Shown here in pieces: positions 614-52,113 of a stretch of DNA of 64,000 bases. Source of the DNA: Octopus vulgaris (lineage: Eukaryota); assembly GCA_951406725.2 (NCBI GenBank), contig OX597834.1:29202001-29266000 (forward strand). Reading direction: 5' to 3'. Within the stretch, counting starts at the first letter, position 1. Every line of letters starts with the position of its first letter. The position numbers and the translations under genes were made by a program. Under the pieces are notes generated by a model. The model did no database searches. It had not been told where the DNA came from and saw only the letters and a list, made by a program, of their open reading frames with translations.

Positions 614-1565
614 TCAAGTTTTTCTCCCTGGAAACTTCTCCTCTAGTTCTGATAGTGACTCAGCAATTAGAGCAAGGTCGTCAGCAGAGAGGAGCTCCCA
701 GGGGTATCCTGTCTTGAATTCCTCTGTTATTGCCTGAAGGACTATGATAAATAGGAGGGAGCTGAGGACTGAACCTTGGCGGACCCCTGCCTCTACCCAG
801 AATTCTTCACTGTACTCGTTGCCAACCCTCACCTTACTGACAGCATCCCTGTATGTGGCTTGCACAGTTCTCACTAACCATTCACCTATCCCTAGTTTCC
901 TCATTGACCACAAGATAAGTGATCGGGGGACCCTGTCAAAGTCTTTCTCCATATCAACAAAAGCCAGGTACAGAGGTTTATCTTTGGCTAGGTATTTCTC
1001 CTGCAGCTGTCTTATCAGAAATATAGCATCAGTGATGCTTTTTCCTGGCACGAACCCAAACTGCATCTCATCTAAACTGATTCTCTCCCTAATTAGTTGG
1101 GCTATGACCCTCTCCATGACCTTCATTATCTGATCCAACAACTTGATACCTCTGTAATTATTTGTATCTAAAGTGTCACCTTTATCTTTGTTGCAGTTGA
1201 CTATGGTGCTGCTACACCAGTCATTGGGTATGACACCTTCATGTATCACCTGGTTAACTATACAGGTGACTAGGCTATAGCTAACACCACCAGATATTTT
1301 GAGCATCTCTGCAGTGATTCCTGATGGGCCAAGGGCTTTCCCTGTCTTCATATTCTTAATTGCTTTATCTACCAAGGTACTGTCAATTCGGATAGCTGGT
1401 CCCTCTGTTGGGTTGACATTCGGCAGACTCTCTTTCTCTCATTCATTCTGTTTATTGAGCAACCTTTCATAGTGGTGTCTCCAAACCTCTCTCTTTGCAG
1501 CCTCGTTTAGTGCAAGTGAACCATCATCCATGCGGACAAATTTCTCTCGTACGCCATCACGATTC
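614..1565 (-). mobile_element. RTE-clade LINE reverse transcriptase fragment (inactive)
   Basis: Motifs KTGKALGPSGITAEMLK, NYRGIKLL, QFGFVPGKSITDAIF, AFVDMEKDFDRV, GVRQGSVLS and a mutated LSADD (normally YADD). It is truncated after the DD motif and has an upstream stop. Confidence 0.9.
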
Positions 1566-18625: not shown

Positions 18626-19379
18626 TTTTTTTAGTCCTTACATCAGCTGCTTTGTAATCAACATCATCATCGTCATCATTATCCCCATCAACATCATCAA
18701 CATCATCATCATTATCCCCATCAACATCATCAACATCATCAACATCATCATCATTTATCACAAAAATGCTATCACATCTTGCCTACCTAACAAAAGAGGA
18801 ATACACACACAGGCTTGTTTACAAAGTTCTAAATAACCCAAAATTTAATCAATTAAAATTTTTCCAAAACACCCTTCCACAACAACCAACCACAAAGACC
18901 TAATTGTCACCTCACTCAAACCCACACACCCAAAATGATTTTTAACTCGAGAAAGACTCTATAAACACAAGACTAACTCTGATGCATCACAGTCCAATGA
19001 TGGCTTAACTGGCCAAAACTTCAATGTCACTACCAACAACTTTTTTGTATAAGAATAATAAATTTATATTCTACAAAAATATAGAGTAACCAATCAGATT
19101 AAAGTAATGCTGTTTGCATTATAACTGAACATTAATAAATATGTGTGTGTGCATGTGTGTGTGCATGTGTGTGTGTTGTGTGTGTGTGTAGTTGGAGGAT
19201 GGTAATACCAATTTTGAAACTAAAATAACCAATTAAATCAGGAGTACAATACAATTAGTGTTGGAATAATAATAATGGTTCCAAATTTTGGCTCAAGGCC
19301 AGGAAGTTTGTGGCACAGGGTAAGTCAATTACATCGACCCCAGTGCTCAACAGGTACTTATTCTATCGACCTCAAAAGC

Positions 19380-20053
19380 CAGGCAAAATTCTGTTTTCTG
19401 CTGGAGAAAACAACAGCCGAAACAATTGTCATGCTTCAAACAGCTTACAAGGCTGCTGCCATAAGCAAAACACAAGCTTACAAGTGGTTTCCATGCTTTA
19501 GGAATGGTCACTCGTCACTTGAAAAACGACTTCATTCAATGCAACTGTCGACCTACCAAAGAAATGAAAACATCCAGAAAATTCCTGAGGACCATCACCA
19601 AACAATTGACAAACTTGTTGATATGACTGGTGTGTCCTGGAGCTCCTGCCAATGAATTTTGAGTGAGGAATTGTGAATGAAAAGAGTTCCAACAAAATTT
19701 GTGCCTTGATTGCTCATGGAAGAGCAAAAGCAGTAACAATTGAATGCCTGTTGTGAACCGAAAGAACAACTGGAAGTTGAACTGGACCTCTTTTTTTGAA
19801 GGTCATCACTGGTGATGAAAGCTGGTGCTATGGAATTTGCAGATGTGGAAGAGGTGAAAGAAAAACCAAAGGAGGCATTAAAAGACATCACTTTGTAAGA
19901 ATTCCAGCACCGTTTTGAACAGCGGAAAATGCAGCTGGACTGATGCATTGCTTGGAATGGAGAATACTTTGAAGGCAATAAAAGCGTAAACATGTAAAAC
20001 TAAGTGAATAGAATATTGCAAAATTCCGGTTTCTTTTGGGTACCCCCTTTGTA
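19380..20053 (+). mobile_element. Mariner transposon remnant with an internal deletion
   Basis: KFCFLLEKTTAETIVMLQTAY...YKWF..F.NG helix-turn-helix. KVITGDESWCY is joined directly to FADVEEVK...CIAWNGEYFEG. The right end is ttttgggtaccccctttgTA. Confidence 0.85.
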
Positions 20054-45634: not shown

Positions 45635-46700
45635 AGCTGTGAGGTAAGAAGCTGACTTCCAAATTCTATGGTTCTGAGTTCAGTCCCACTGCATGGCACC
45701 TTGGGCAAGTGTCTTCTACTATAGCCCTGAGATGACCAAAGCCTTGTGAGTGGATTTGGTAGATGGAAACTGAAAGAAGCCCAATGAAAATGAGTGTATG
45801 TGTGTGTGTTTATGTCTGTTTGACCCCACCACAAGTGCTTGACAACTAGTGTTGGTGTGATTATGTCCCCTGTAACTTGGCAGTTCAGCAAAAGAAACTG
45901 ATACACATATGTTTCTCTTTTCTCTTTTCTCTTTTACTTGTTTCAGTCATTTGACTGCGGCCATGCTGGAGCACCACCTTTAATCGAGCAACTCGACCCC
46001 GGGACTTATTTTTTGTAAGCCCAGTACTTATTCTATCGGTCTCTTTTGCCAAACCGCTAAGTAACAGTGGTTGTCAAGCAATGCTAGGGGGACAAACACA
46101 GACACACAAACACACACACGCATATATATATATACATATATACGACAGGCTTCTTTCAGTTTCCGTCTACCAATTCCACTCACAAGGCTTTGGTCGGCCT
46201 GAGGCTATAGTAGAAGACACTTGCCCAAGGTGCCACGCAGTGGGACTGAACCCAGAACCATGTGGTTGGTAAACAAGCTACTTACCACACAGCCACTCCT
46301 ATGTATGTATATCATTTATCTTTCACTTGTTTCAATCATTAGACTGCAGCCATGCTGGGGCATCATGTAGAATTTTAGTCAAACAAATTGACCCAAGTAC
46401 ATATGTTTAACGTTTTTAAGCCTGGTACTTATTCTATCAAGCTCTTTTGCTGAACCTCTAAGTTACAAGTATATAAACACTCTGACACCAGTTCTCAAGA
46501 GCTGAGTGAAAGATGAACAGCGATACAATCACACATACTCAAACCTCTTTCAGTTTTCTTCTCCCAAATCCACTCACAAAGCTTTGGTCAGGCTGTAGCT
46601 ATAGTACAAGATACTTGCTGACGGTGCCACACAGTGGGACTGAACCCAGAACCATTTGGTTGAGAGACAAATGTCTCACCACAGAGCTATACCTGTGTCT
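45635..46700. mobile_element. Three adjacent SINE family A copies (45635-45900 +, 45915-46300 -, 46315-46700 - and older)
   Basis: Module-wise matches to the family A sequence. Confidence 0.8.
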
Positions 46701-46973: not shown

Positions 46974-47021
<48 letters not shown>

Positions 47022-47044
47022 ATACAATATGTTACATTACTCGG

Positions 47045-47118
47045 TAGTCAAGATAAAACTCTGAGTTTCAGATGCCGAAGTGGAAATCCACAACACCATC
47101 TCTTCGGTTATCTGGCTA
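47045..47118 (-). ncRNA. Mirror copy of the hammerhead candidate on the left arm
   Basis: Reverse complement of 48291-48364. Confidence 0.65.
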
Positions 47119-47308
47119 TTTGAAAACGTTATGAAAAAATACCGTTAAAAATGAAGGGAAATTACTCTGTTATAACTCTGCTTTGCCTGCGTACTTATAC
47201 ATCGCTCGCATTTTTCGTCATAAAAATTATATAAAAATACATAAAAAATATATAAAAATATATAAAAATATATAAAATCTTCTTGGGACATAACACAGAA
47301 AGCATGTT

Positions 47309-47713
47309 CTATCCGTTTTCTTTAGGGGACCAAAAACGTAACAGAAATTTAGTCACATGTGGGCATGATCCGAAAAGTTCTGTCCTTGTATTTAGACATG
47401 TGGTAGGGTCTAAGCTGCTTTTCCAGATAAGCCATCTCTCCATGTCGCATAAACCGCACCTTCCGCTGCCGTTAGTATAGGGCTTACATCTGGCCAAAAT
47501 CTTCCATTGTATGTTATAATCGACACCTTTATCTCTTAAAGACCAAATATGATTGGATAATTGTGTCGCTTTTCTTTTGTTCCAGTGCCTAAAGCTCAAA
47601 GTGTGGTTATTGAACCTGGTCTTGAAATTACCCTCTGTCAGGCCCACGTATTTCTTCGTCAAAACGGTGTCTTTAGTGGTTATAGAGTTTACGGTAGCCT
47701 CATATATGATGCT
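47309..47713 (-). CDS. Mirror copy of the same GIY-YIG domain on the left arm
   Basis: ORF 47309..47848(-) is identical to 47561..48100(+) except SIIYE versus SLIYD at the hairpin centre. Confidence 0.85.
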   Translation of the reverse strand, partial: SIIYEATVNSITTKDTVLTKKYVGLTEGNFKTRFNNHTLSFRHWNKRKATQLSNHIWSLRDKGVDYNIQWKILARCKPYTNGSGRCGLCDMERWLIWKSSLDPTTCLNTRTELFGSCPHVTKFLLRFWSPKENG

Positions 47714-48100
47714 ACCGTAAACTCTATAACCACTAAAGACACCGTTTTGACGAAGAAATACGTGGGCCTGACAGAGGGTAATTTCAAGACCAGGTTCAAT
47801 AACCACACTTTGAGCTTTAGGCACTGGAACAAAAGAAAAGCGACACAATTATCCAATCATATTTGGTCTTTAAGAGATAAAGGTGTCGATTATAACATAC
47901 AATGGAAGATTTTGGCCAGATGTAAGCCCTATACTAACGGCAGCGGAAGGTGCGGTTTATGCGACATGGAGAGATGGCTTATCTGGAAAAGCAGCTTAGA
48001 CCCTACCACATGTCTAAATACAAGGACAGAACTTTTCGGATCATGCCCACATGTGACTAAATTTCTGTTACGTTTTTGGTCCCCTAAAGAAAACGGATAG
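47696..48100 (+). CDS. C-terminal GIY-YIG endonuclease domain of a PLE ORF (no RT present). The N-terminal ~45 aa of the listed ORF are antisense read-through of the left arm.
   Basis: SLIY...KKYVGLTEGNFKTRFNNH...LSNHIWSLR...WKIL...CGLCDMER...LNTRTELFGSCPH has the IY/YVG motifs, the conserved R and H, CxxC-x2-E, LN and CxH, with no stops. Confidence 0.85.
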   Translation, partial: SLIYDATVNSITTKDTVLTKKYVGLTEGNFKTRFNNHTLSFRHWNKRKATQLSNHIWSLRDKGVDYNIQWKILARCKPYTNGSGRCGLCDMERWLIWKSSLDPTTCLNTRTELFGSCPHVTKFLLRFWSPKENG

Positions 48101-48290
48101 AACATGCTTTCTGTGTTATGTCCCAAGAAGATTTTATATATTTTTATATATTTTTATATATTTTTTATGTATTTTTATATAATTTTTATGACGAAAAATG
48201 CGAGCGATGTATAAGTACGCAGGCAAAGCAGAGTTATAACAGAGTAATTTCCCTTCATTTTTAACGGTATTTTTTCATAACGTTTTCAAA

Positions 48291-48364
48291 TAGCCAGATA
48301 ACCGAAGAGATGGTGTTGTGGATTTCCACTTCGGCATCTGAAACTCAGAGTTTTATCTTGACTA
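48291..48364 (+). ncRNA. Type-I hammerhead ribozyme candidate in the PLE 3' region
   Basis: agataa-CCGAAGA-gatg...catc-t-GAAA-ctc-a-gag-TT-ttatct. Stem I is agataa/ttatct, stem II is gatg/catc with an inner gtgg/ccac hairpin, stem III is ctc/gag, and the predicted cleavage triplet is GUU. Confidence 0.65.
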
Positions 48365-48454
48365 CCGAGTAATGTAACATATTGTATAGATAAATTTCCT
48401 CTATTTACATAATATTGAGGTCTCTTTCTTTCTTTTGTTATCTTACCGTTTTAT

Positions 48455-48527
<73 letters not shown>

Positions 48528-48607
48528 CATATTTATATATACATATATCAATATGTATATAAATATATATGTATCTATGTATATATAAAAGCTTAAGCTC
48601 TTTTAAC

Positions 48608-48656
48608 TCCTCTCTGATGATGTCAAATCTTTTATATCTCTGAAACAGCTGTAAGG
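48608..48656 (+). ncRNA. Degenerate hammerhead motif
   Basis: tct-CTGATGA-(21 nt, weak stem II)-GAAA-cagctg-TA-agg, with a palindromic stem III ACAGCTGT. Confidence 0.5.
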
Positions 48657-51425: not shown

Positions 51426-51454
<29 letters not shown>

Positions 51455-51460
<6 letters not shown>

Positions 51461-51656
51461 TTTATTTAAAAGCAGCAGAAATTCAACAAAACCTGTTACT
51501 CGGAGTTTCACGTTCCCGTTCGTCGGACAGTTTTGTTAAAACTCCGAGTAACAGGTTTTGTTGAATTTCTGTAGCTTTTAGATAAAGTATATTACTCTAC
51601 CCCTGGCATTTGAGTACTCTTTTTTCCACTTTATTTCACATGTATGTGTTTACTCC

Positions 51657-51660
<4 letters not shown>
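51455..51660. mobile_element. Short fold-back PLE remnant in (TA)n
   Basis: ~53-bp inverted arms (51455-51508 and 51539-51592) with a few mismatches, a hammerhead spanning the left arm and loop, a unique tail to 51660, and (TA)n on both sides. Confidence 0.75.
51485..51537 (-). ncRNA. Minimal type-I hammerhead ribozyme
   Basis: Minus strand reads aacaaaactgt-CCGACGA-acg-ggaa-cgt-GAAA-ctc-c-gag-TA-acaggttttgtt. All three stems pair and the cleavage triplet is GUA. Confidence 0.8.
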
Positions 51661-51698
<38 letters not shown>

Positions 51699-51841
51699 AG
51701 GCTTCTTTCAGTTTCTGTCCACCACTCACACGGCTATAGTAGAAGATACTTGCCCATGGTGCCACATGGTTGGACTGAACCTGGAACCACATGGTTGGGA
51801 AGCAAGCTTCTTAGCACAGAGCCACACCTTCATAAATAGAA

Positions 51842-51924
<83 letters not shown>

Positions 51925-51926
<2 letters not shown>

Positions 51927-52074
51927 GGTCCCGGGTTGATTCGGGGTTAACCACAGTAAATAAGGTACTCAATACATAGCAGAGTAAAAATAATTTATTA
52001 TATAGAAGGAGCTTCTACAGGACTAGAACTGTTTCATTCGAATGAAACAGTTCTAGTCCTGTAGAAGCTCCTTC

Positions 52075-52083
<9 letters not shown>
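51925..52083. mobile_element. Short fold-back PLE-like remnant with a perfect 88-bp palindrome
   Basis: 51996-52039 is the exact reverse complement of 52040-52083 (centre ttc|gaa). A unique tail lies on the left, (TA)n flanks both sides, and the arms contain GAAACAGTTCTA. Confidence 0.7.

Positions 52084-52113
<30 letters not shown>

What the first reader, a model, noticed from the sequence alone, without database searches (positions are those of the whole stretch)
47017..48456. 1.38-kb near-perfect, spacer-less palindrome encoding a GIY-YIG nuclease and a ribozyme in each arm
Seen: two 688-bp arms with no spacer and one visible mismatch. Each arm reads outward as an uninterrupted GIY-YIG coding region, an AT-rich UTR, then a hammerhead. 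Only the right arm carries the last ~64 bp, and the whole unit sits in (TA)n. Known: PLEs pair RT with GIY-YIG, carry hammerheads in their pseudo-LTRs and often have inverted 5' ends. From memory, the CxxC/LN/CxH pattern and (TA)n targeting resemble the 'Hydra' group of PLEs, which needs checking. Inference: this is a very young insertion from an active family. A read-through transcript would form ~690 bp of dsRNA, a possible siRNA source or ADAR substrate, and the DNA could extrude a cruciform.
Basis: partly seen in the sequence, partly recalled or inferred. Interest (0 to 1): 0.85.

Follow-up and report, generated by a model that had tools for sequence, protein, structure and literature searches.

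The report
Mirror-image Penelope-like retrotransposon fragment
This is a young, truncated copy of a known kind of jumping gene that landed as two back-to-back mirror copies, an ordinary product of these elements, though its centre and ends hint at how the mirror is made.

Summary
The palindrome is confirmed: two 688-bp arms, no spacer, axis 47704|47705, one mismatch 6 bp from the axis, a 64-65 bp tail on the right only, (TA)n on both sides. Each arm is the 3' end of a Hydra-clade Penelope-like element (PLE): a GIY-YIG nuclease fragment without start codon or RT, then a type I hammerhead. The family differs from the published Hydra-1_Obim. Head-to-head inversion with a one-sided tail is published PLE anatomy; it recurs twice within 5 kb and in three related Hydra-type insertions elsewhere, so an artefact is unlikely. 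The junction itself was not seen in independent reads.

New details: (1) the axis falls on a 14-bp palindrome native to the element; (2) Hydra tails share a conserved hairpin; (3) the hammerhead core has C at position 4; (4) the tail can sit on either the longer or the shorter arm. This favours two first-strand cDNAs, primed at the two tail boundaries and annealed at the palindrome (about 50%). dsRNA, siRNA, editing and cruciform ideas are untested. Verdict: a new family of a known kind, modest interest.

The parts
46975..47018 (.). Left (TA)n target tract; overlaps the arm end by about 2 nt; no target-site duplication discernible
47017..47704 (-). Left arm: inverted, tail-less 3' part of a Hydra-clade PLE; its outer end mirrors 48392
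   Evidence: two contigs of run X17 also pass from 48392 into (TA)n
47051..47113 (-). Type I hammerhead, left arm (predicted cleavage after 47057)
47309..47704 (-). GIY-YIG endonuclease frame, left arm, with stop codon
47698..47711 (.). Junction: site of a 14-bp palindrome native to the element; holds the only mismatch (47699) and the GIY tyrosine codon (47705-47707)
   Evidence: loose ends before 47700 in 17 contigs of X1 and 1 of X17; longest palindrome in 47700-48456
47705..48392 (+). Right arm: 5'-truncated Hydra-clade PLE 3' part
47705..48100 (+). GIY-YIG endonuclease frame: Y3, Y21-x-G23, R32, C85xxC88, E91, N107, C116xH118; no start codon, no linker, no RT
48101..48295 (+). AT-rich 3' UTR with short 10-bp repeats (about 48129-48181), identical in both arms
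48296..48358 (+). Type I hammerhead: stem I 48296-301/48353-58, core 48302-08 with C at position 4, stem II 48309-39, near-palindromic stem III 48343-51, predicted cleavage after 48352
   Evidence: layout matches the Hydra table in the PMC8557442 supplement
48393..48457 (+). Tail, on the right arm only, with the conserved Hydra tail hairpin at 48398-48420
   Evidence: (45, 74 and 8 contigs end near 48452-57 into TA)
48458..48525 (.). Right (TA)n target tract, interrupted once

Best explanation
It is one genuine, recent, non-autonomous insertion of an undescribed high-copy Hydra-clade PLE family into a (TA)n tract, made of two 5'-truncated copies joined head to head (about 0.92). Most likely mechanism (about 0.5, inferred): the RT-endonuclease of a full-length copy nicks both strands of (TA)n. 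Each 3' end primes a first-strand cDNA on element RNA, one at the far end of the tail (48457) and one at its near end (48392). Both cDNAs have the same polarity, so they can pair only at a self-complementary sequence. They annealed at the native 14-bp palindrome at the start of the GIY-YIG domain, and each then served as template for the other, giving a spacer-less palindrome with a tail on one arm. The lone mismatch is probably a junction error, not a clock tick. The insert is dead: no RT and no start codon. Shown: anatomy, clade features, native palindrome at the axis, two recurrent family ends, same layout in other copies. Inferred: two priming events, annealing, the role of the tail hairpin.
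For: Protein: 50% identity (63/126) to the C-terminus of P0161, a 640-aa RT-linker-EN protein with DKT and CxCX5C; Hydra residues conserved in 143 aligned sequences; GIY-YIG fold. Layout is published: an inverted 5'-truncated copy and a tail at one end (PMC8557442), palindromes at inverted junctions (PMC3846280), Penelope-13_HM with hammerheads on both strands. Axis: loose ends give the native upstream letters, which extend the 10-bp centre to a perfect 14 bp; it is the longest palindrome among 756 centres in the arm, and P(half-length >=7) per centre is 1.1e-4. Ends: many contigs stop near 48452-57 into TA; 2 contigs of X17 stop at 48392 into TA. In vitro, the anole PLE cuts and extends both strands and starts RT at two sites bounding the tail (PMC11167929). 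Of 7 head-to-head Hydra-type structures read here, the tail is on the shorter arm in 2 (window 51455-51659; L024 3797-4142), on the longer arm in 2 (L004; L024 3108-3324), on one of two equal arms in 2 (this one; window 51924-52083), and both arms reach the tail end in 1 (L009). One cDNA that snaps back without further cutting cannot put the tail on the shorter arm alone.
Against: No independent read or contig was shown to cross the axis: no joint is listed there, and the stretch laid reached only 15 bases past it. No genome is held, so no full-length RT-bearing copy of this family and no empty site were seen. Support for 48392 as a family end is thin (2 contigs in one run; 334 loose ends not shown). 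The three other opposite-strand joints of the family show 0-1 letters of microhomology, so palindrome-guided annealing is not required in general. Snap-back followed by endonuclease cutting at the TA-like tail base gives the same products. Arm identity may be inflated by conversion or polishing.
Confidence: 0.6

Rival explanations
1. Same element, made by snap-back: one cDNA primed at the tail end folds back at the native palindrome and copies itself. The element's endonuclease then cuts the hairpin at the TA-like base of the tail on one arm and joins it to the target.
For: The axis lies at a native palindrome and the only mismatch is 6 bp from it (about 1% by chance), as expected from an error at re-priming. 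Both arms share minority alleles (47748 T and 47789 A: at most 14.5% and 6.5% of summed depth in X1, about 0.1% in X3). Craig et al. ascribe the tail to EN-mediated resolution. The short-arm end is TA-like in all three window elements.
Against: It needs an extra cut to explain a tail on the shorter arm (2 of 7 structures). In vitro data explain the tail by two RT start sites without such a cut.
Confidence: 0.27
2. Self-priming on an antisense RNA template, as Arkhipova et al. 2013 proposed for head-to-head PLE palindromes.
For: Published interpretation of palindromes at inverted junctions (PMC3846280); it predicts an axis at a native inverted repeat, as seen.
Against: The anole PLE uses the sense RNA with internal RT starts in vitro. 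No antisense transcript was shown here; contigs cannot give strand.
Confidence: 0.07
3. Assembly artefact: a fold-back chimeric read, or two separate truncated copies mis-joined at the native palindrome, with arms made identical by polishing.
For: The junction was not seen in independent data. The family is very repetitive (6,126 and 10,619 contigs laid in X1 and X3). Library fold-backs also start at native palindromes (recalled).
Against: A fold-back read would mirror the tail and the flank; here mirroring stops at a family end and the flanks differ. Two short structures of the same layout lie within 5 kb. L004, from another assembly, has 758-bp arms with 0 differences and a one-sided tail. 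Both arms carry minority alleles rather than family-majority alleles.
Confidence: 0.06

Closest known systems
Hydra clade of C-terminal EN+ Penelope-like elements (Craig et al. 2021, PMC8557442); nearest listed family Hydra-1_Obim
   Same: C-terminal GIY-YIG without CCHH, CxxC and CxH around E and N, (TA)n target, type I hammerhead with a 4-bp stem III and 1-nt loop. The motif GSCPH occurs once in the supplement, in a row matching the C-terminus that I translated by eye from the Hydra-1_Obim DNA.
   Different: A different family: 26 of 52 C-terminal residues identical by my by-eye reading, with different linker-side residues, UTR and hammerhead sequence. Its hammerhead has C4, whereas all 26 Hydra rows of table S2 have U4. 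This copy lacks RT.
PLE insertions with an inverted 5'-truncated copy, junction palindrome and one-sided tail (Arkhipova et al. 2013, PMC3846280; Craig et al. Fig. 2; Penelope-13_HM)
   Same: Head-to-head orientation, palindrome at the junction, tail on one end only, hammerhead on both strands.
   Different: The published junction palindromes that I read of are 18 and 38 bp and the tails 30-40 bp; here the whole 1,376 bp is a spacer-less palindrome and the tail is 64-65 bp (about 60-75 bp in the other Hydra-type ends read here).
PAc (Poseidon of Anolis) in vitro mechanism (Frangieh et al. 2024, PMC11167929)
   Same: AT-rich target, tail bounded by two recurrent ends, a stem-loop in the RT start region, hammerhead that may need protein help.
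   Different: Different clade. In the parts I read, that work does not explain inverted copies, and its stem-loop is AC-rich, not the CTC/GAG hairpin.
L1 twin priming (Ostertag and Kazazian 2001; recalled, not read)
   Same: Two primed cDNAs from the two target nicks are joined at microhomology to give a 5' inversion.
   Different: In L1 the second primer anneals internally, so the two parts do not overlap. Here both cDNAs would start at the 3' end and copy the same sequence, giving a palindrome.
Non-LTR retrozymes (bioRxiv 10.64898/2026.07.22.740005)
   Same: Non-autonomous, PLE-derived, type I hammerhead.
   Different: Those are non-coding head-to-tail tandem arrays; this is a head-to-head pair with 400 bp of coding sequence per arm.

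Membership tests
EN+ Penelope-like elements | [quoted passage not shown] | tested here: met
   Weak Pfam hit below cut-off; Y, YxG, R, E, N conserved; fold matches I-TevI Z 9.2; aligns to residues 517-636 of the 640-aa P0161
EN+ Penelope-like elements | PLE-type RT in the same ORF | tested here: inconclusive
   Absent from this truncated copy; present in homologues P0161 and L004; no full-length copy of this family could be fetched
EN+ Penelope-like elements | Inverted 5'-truncated copy and tail at one end only | tested here: met
   definition in the PMC8557442 Fig. 2 legend; tail is 64-65 bp, longer than the 30-40 bp quoted
Hydra clade | CCHH motif absent from the EN | tested here: met
   No Cys between Y3 and Y21, unlike the Naiad_Ovul sequence seen; that this is where the CCHH cysteines sit is recalled
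Hydra clade | [quoted passage not shown] | tested here: met
   C85xxC88, E91, N107, C116xH118, each at 90% or more in 143 sequences; definition
Hydra clade | CxCX5C linker | tested here: inconclusive
   Lies upstream of the truncation. The 30 loose-end letters read by eye like the residues that follow this motif in relatives but do not reach it. Present in P0161
Hydra clade | RT signatures (RWK, DKT) and RT tree placement | not testable with these tools
   No RT in the window copy and no genome held; DKT seen only in homologue P0161
Hydra clade | Insertion into (TA)n | tested here: met
   family ends run into TA in three runs
Hydra clade | Canonical type I hammerhead downstream of the ORF | tested here: inconclusive
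   Three stems and the other core positions are present, but U4 is C and there is an extra U before G12. No Rfam hit. All 18 hammerheads found behind the EN in 27 related loci have U4. Cleavage untested
Hydra-1_Obim family | Near-identical protein and 3' end | tested here: not met
   About 50% amino-acid identity over 52 residues and a different hammerhead and UTR, compared by eye with the supplement text; window motifs absent from the supplement
Non-LTR retrozymes | Non-coding head-to-tail tandem units, each with a hammerhead | tested here: not met
   Head-to-head and coding-derived; definition

The most novel reading that the evidence does not exclude
Hydra-clade PLEs integrate by symmetric double priming. 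A conserved tail hairpin (CTC...TGAG, outer pair covarying) positions two RT start sites about 65 nt apart, and the two same-polarity cDNAs are joined at native palindromes or inverted microhomologies. Every insertion then has two 3' ends and can be a long perfect palindrome. In this host a subfamily with a C4 hammerhead would still be amplifying and seeding kilobase dsRNA-forming hairpins.
Probability: 0.35. Interest if true: 0.6.

Novelty: new member of a known kind. Interest (0 to 1): 0.3.

Why it matters
The object itself is an ordinary dead transposon fragment. Its value is mechanistic: how PLEs make inverted ends is still open (the authors of PMC3846280 and PMC11167929 both say so), and this copy, its two neighbours and the related loci give testable rules. 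The axis falls on a native palindrome, the tail can sit on either arm, and a conserved hairpin marks the tail. A high-copy young family with a C4 hammerhead would be a good natural dataset, and long perfect palindromes in a host with heavy RNA editing could be dsRNA sources if transcribed.

Tried and rejected
No genome is held for this window, so no genome-wide copy census, full-length copy or empty allele could be had. Rfam: 0 hits at gathering in the window; the 38 E-value hits around the finding are hairpin and TA artefacts, none a hammerhead. PDB sequence search with alignment A1: 0 hits. Foldseek: 0 hits at E<=0.001. Pfam on 10 homologues gave no RT hit and one weak GIY-YIG hit, so Pfam is a poor test for this clade. 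Viral contigs: 31 pattern matches, 0 confirmed. No RNA holder was listed for the arm; this is no evidence on expression. In X17 (RNA only by guess) the A>G and T>C differences listed are all also in the DNA contigs of X1 or X3, so they show no editing. The read lay could not test the junction. The AT-rich repeat 48129-48181 was skipped by the tool, so its zero depth means nothing. Single-sequence folds of the tails and hammerheads are not better than shuffles (z -1.39 to +0.80); the hairpin claim rests on conservation. Of 15 inverted repeats read in related loci, 4 are Hydra head-to-head structures (L004, L024 twice, L009); 2 are cut by contig ends or rearranged (L008, L022), 2 are tail-to-tail or nested (L002), and 7 look unrelated and were dropped. 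Horizontal transfer (nine organism codes hold at least 0.77 of the words) was considered. The one non-A run laid (X6) had only 2 contigs, identical and at depth 7-8, which fits trace host DNA; unresolved. A TIR or foldback DNA transposon was rejected: the arms are retroelement 3' ends facing outward. No host exon was identified in a crude ORF listing, so read-through transcription could not be judged. Earlier-findings look-ups by sequence and by place returned nothing. Literature searches for twin priming in PLEs, for U4C hammerheads and for the tail motif found no PLE description; the library lacks most subscription papers, and I saw 3 of 59 supplement parts of PMC8557442 plus three searches of it.

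Full report
Observation. The structure is as described. The axis is 47704|47705 with no spacer; the arms (47017-47704, 47705-48392) differ at one pair, 47699/47710, and at 0 of 681 pairs outside the central 14 bp. Only the right arm continues, for 64-65 bp, before (TA)n; TA tracts flank both ends and no target duplication can be read. A self-BLAST of the arm finds no other copy in the window. Rfam reports nothing at gathering level and only hairpin or TA artefacts by E-value.

The coding part. Read outward, each arm has the same open frame, which starts at the axis and has no ATG until residue 90. Pfam gives a sub-threshold GIY-YIG hit (E 0.0032). A library-wide search found 4,823 relatives at E<=0.001. 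In an alignment of 143 sequences Y21, G23, R32, C85, C88, E91, N107, C116 and H118 are at least 90% conserved. The model (pLDDT 90) matches I-TevI, T4 EndoII, PD-T4-3 and UvrC as ranks 1-4 of 48,161 chains; Foldseek alone was not significant. The fragment is 50% identical to the end of a 640-aa RT-EN protein with DKT and a CxCX5C linker. These are the Hydra-clade marks in PMC8557442 (section 11). The closest listed family, Hydra-1_Obim, shares the GSCPH motif but only 26 of 52 C-terminal residues by eye, so this is another family. The host is probably an octopus (inference from that and from a recalled SINE).

The ribozyme. A relaxed type I scan of both strands of the window gave three hits: the two arms and a neighbour at 51526. 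The layout (6-bp stem I, long stem II, 4-bp stem III with a 1-nt loop, cleavage after GUU) fits the Hydra table in the supplement. The core, however, has C at position 4, where all 26 table rows and all 18 hammerheads found behind the EN in 27 related loci have U. No other letter is listed at that site in the runs laid, so it looks like a family trait. U4C is reported to weaken cleavage in vitro (PMC3088659); metazoan PLE hammerheads are weak as monomers (PMC4209133), and the anole one needs protein and is dispensable for insertion in vitro (PMC11167929). The hammerhead fold is not the minimum-energy fold. Activity is unknown.

The family. 20 of 24 listed runs hold at least half of the arm's words. 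On the four runs laid, 6,126, 10,619, 2 and 452 contigs aligned. Loose ends before 47700 (17 contigs in X1, 1 in X17, full agreement) give the element's own upstream letters. They show a native A at 47699, and that the centre is a perfect 14-bp palindrome native to the element. It is already the longest palindrome in 47700-48456, and such a site has a chance of 1.1e-4 per position. The single mismatch lies inside it (about 1% by chance), so it is probably a junction or base-calling error. Many contigs end near 48452-57 into TA (45, 74, 8), and two X17 contigs end at 48392 into TA, the place where the left arm stops. Both arms carry alleles that are minor in X1 and nearly absent in X3. No joint at the axis is listed, so the junction is not independently confirmed, and three other opposite-strand joints show 0-1 letters of overlap.

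Is the layout unusual? No. PMC8557442 describes an inverted 5'-truncated copy and a tail at one end as typical, and lists Penelope-13_HM with such a copy and hammerheads on both strands. PMC3846280 describes palindromes at inverted junctions and reads them as self-priming. Two more such units of other families lie at 51455-51659 and 51924-52083. Among 15 inverted repeats read in 27 related loci, four are Hydra head-to-head units, including L004 with 758-bp arms, 0 differences, a 771-bp spacer and one tail. A fold-back artefact would mirror the tail and the flank, which does not happen here.

The tail. All three window tails and the related loci share a short hairpin a few bases past the tail-less end: 18 hits in 80,533 nt against 0.13 in shuffles, with a pattern tuned on the same data. 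In 17 aligned ends (14 of those 18 hits plus the 3 window tails) three pairs are invariant and the outer pair changes on both sides in 3; with four pairs and related sequences this is suggestive only. Within one family some copies stop before the hairpin and others about 60-70 nt later (L013 and L024 against L018; L016 and L020 against L003). This parallels the two RT start sites that bound the tail of the anole element. I did not find the motif described.

Mechanism. Both outer ends are element 3' ends in (TA)n, one at each recurrent end. The simplest account is two first-strand cDNAs primed from the two target nicks. Being of one polarity, they can pair only at a self-complementary site, and the axis is one. 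The tail lies on the shorter arm in two units (window 51455-51659, whose spacer holds the hammerhead core of the tail-less arm; L024 3797-4142, whose spacer is native to the tail-less arm by comparison with L015) and on the longer arm in two. A single snapped-back cDNA cannot give the former without an extra cut. That cut is possible, since the tail base is TA-like, so snap-back with trimming stays open; antisense self-priming is a third option. I put the identity at about 0.92 and the double-priming mechanism at about 0.5. Searches for twin priming with PLE terms returned no PLE paper that uses the term.

Age and consequences. Zero differences in 681 pairs give a 95% upper bound of 0.44%, or about 0.6 My (0.96 My if the mismatch is counted) at the 0.0036 per My used in PMC13282606, if the host is an octopus and the arms were not homogenised. 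That paper counts 31 recently active Penelope-like families in O. vulgaris, so a young family is no surprise. The copy cannot transpose on its own. Read-through dsRNA, siRNA, editing and cruciform extrusion are plausible from general knowledge but untested here.

Papers seen. PMC8557442: passages, section 11, supplement parts 2, 52 and 53 and three supplement searches. PMC3846280: passages and Discussion. PMC11167929: passages and the second part of the main text. PMC4209133: parts 1-2 of 4. PMC3088659: one passage. bioRxiv 10.64898/2026.07.22.740005: part 1 of 5 (supplements closed). PMC13282606: passages. Others: search listings only. L1 twin priming is recalled. Unread supplement parts and figures could describe the tail motif or C4 cores.

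Verdict. A real and correctly described feature, correctly assigned to the Hydra clade, but a known architecture: a new member of a known kind. Interest 0.3, mainly for the mechanistic leads.

Noticed in passing
window 51426-51694: Second (TA)n-embedded head-to-head element of another family: 54-bp arms (3 differences), 30-bp spacer belonging to the tail-less arm, type I hammerhead on the - strand at 51526 also with C4, and a 66-bp tail on the shorter arm.
   Followed up: yes
window 51851-52109: Third such element: perfect 44-bp arms, zero spacer (axis 52039|52040), 72-bp tail on one arm, with the same tail hairpin.
   Followed up: partly
window 48398-48420; L001-L025 3' ends: Conserved Hydra tail hairpin: 18 regex hits in 80,533 nt of related loci against 0.13 in shuffles (regex tuned by eye on these data). 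CTC/GAG is invariant in 17 of 17 aligned ends; the outer pair is GC 13, AU 2, CG 1, broken 1. It is visible by eye in several published Hydra consensi.
   Followed up: yes
window 48302-48308 and 51520-51526: Two unrelated families in this host have C at hammerhead position 4, and no other letter is listed at 48303 in the runs laid. PMC3088659 says U4C lowers activity in vitro but suffices for a viroid in vivo.
   Followed up: partly
window 47748, 47789: The window's alleles make up to 14.5% and 6.5% of summed contig depth in X1 but about 0.1% in X3, under the same organism code. This may be a lineage-specific burst; summed depth is not copy number.
   Followed up: partly
window 47705-48456 in public runs: 20 of 24 listed runs, in 12 studies and nine organism codes, hold 0.77-0.95 of the words. 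Close species, trace host DNA or transfer cannot be told apart.
   Followed up: partly
window 48606-48656: Decayed hammerhead-like motif (U4 core at 48614-20, palindromic stem III) just past the right TA tract; probably an older PLE relic. Read by eye; it did not pass the scan.
   Followed up: no
window 617-1438 (-) and about 19224-19999: Open frames that look like a LINE RT fragment and a mariner-like transposase fragment (labels recalled).
   Followed up: no
window 45636-46698, 51681-51833: Several copies of a SINE-like repeat that I recall as the common octopus SINE. With the Hydra-1_Obim resemblance this suggests an octopus host (inference).
   Followed up: no
L002-L027: 26 loci in bacterial genome records carry Hydra-type PLEs, most with hammerheads and many with (TA)n tracts; these look like animal host DNA binned into prokaryote genomes.
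   Followed up: partly
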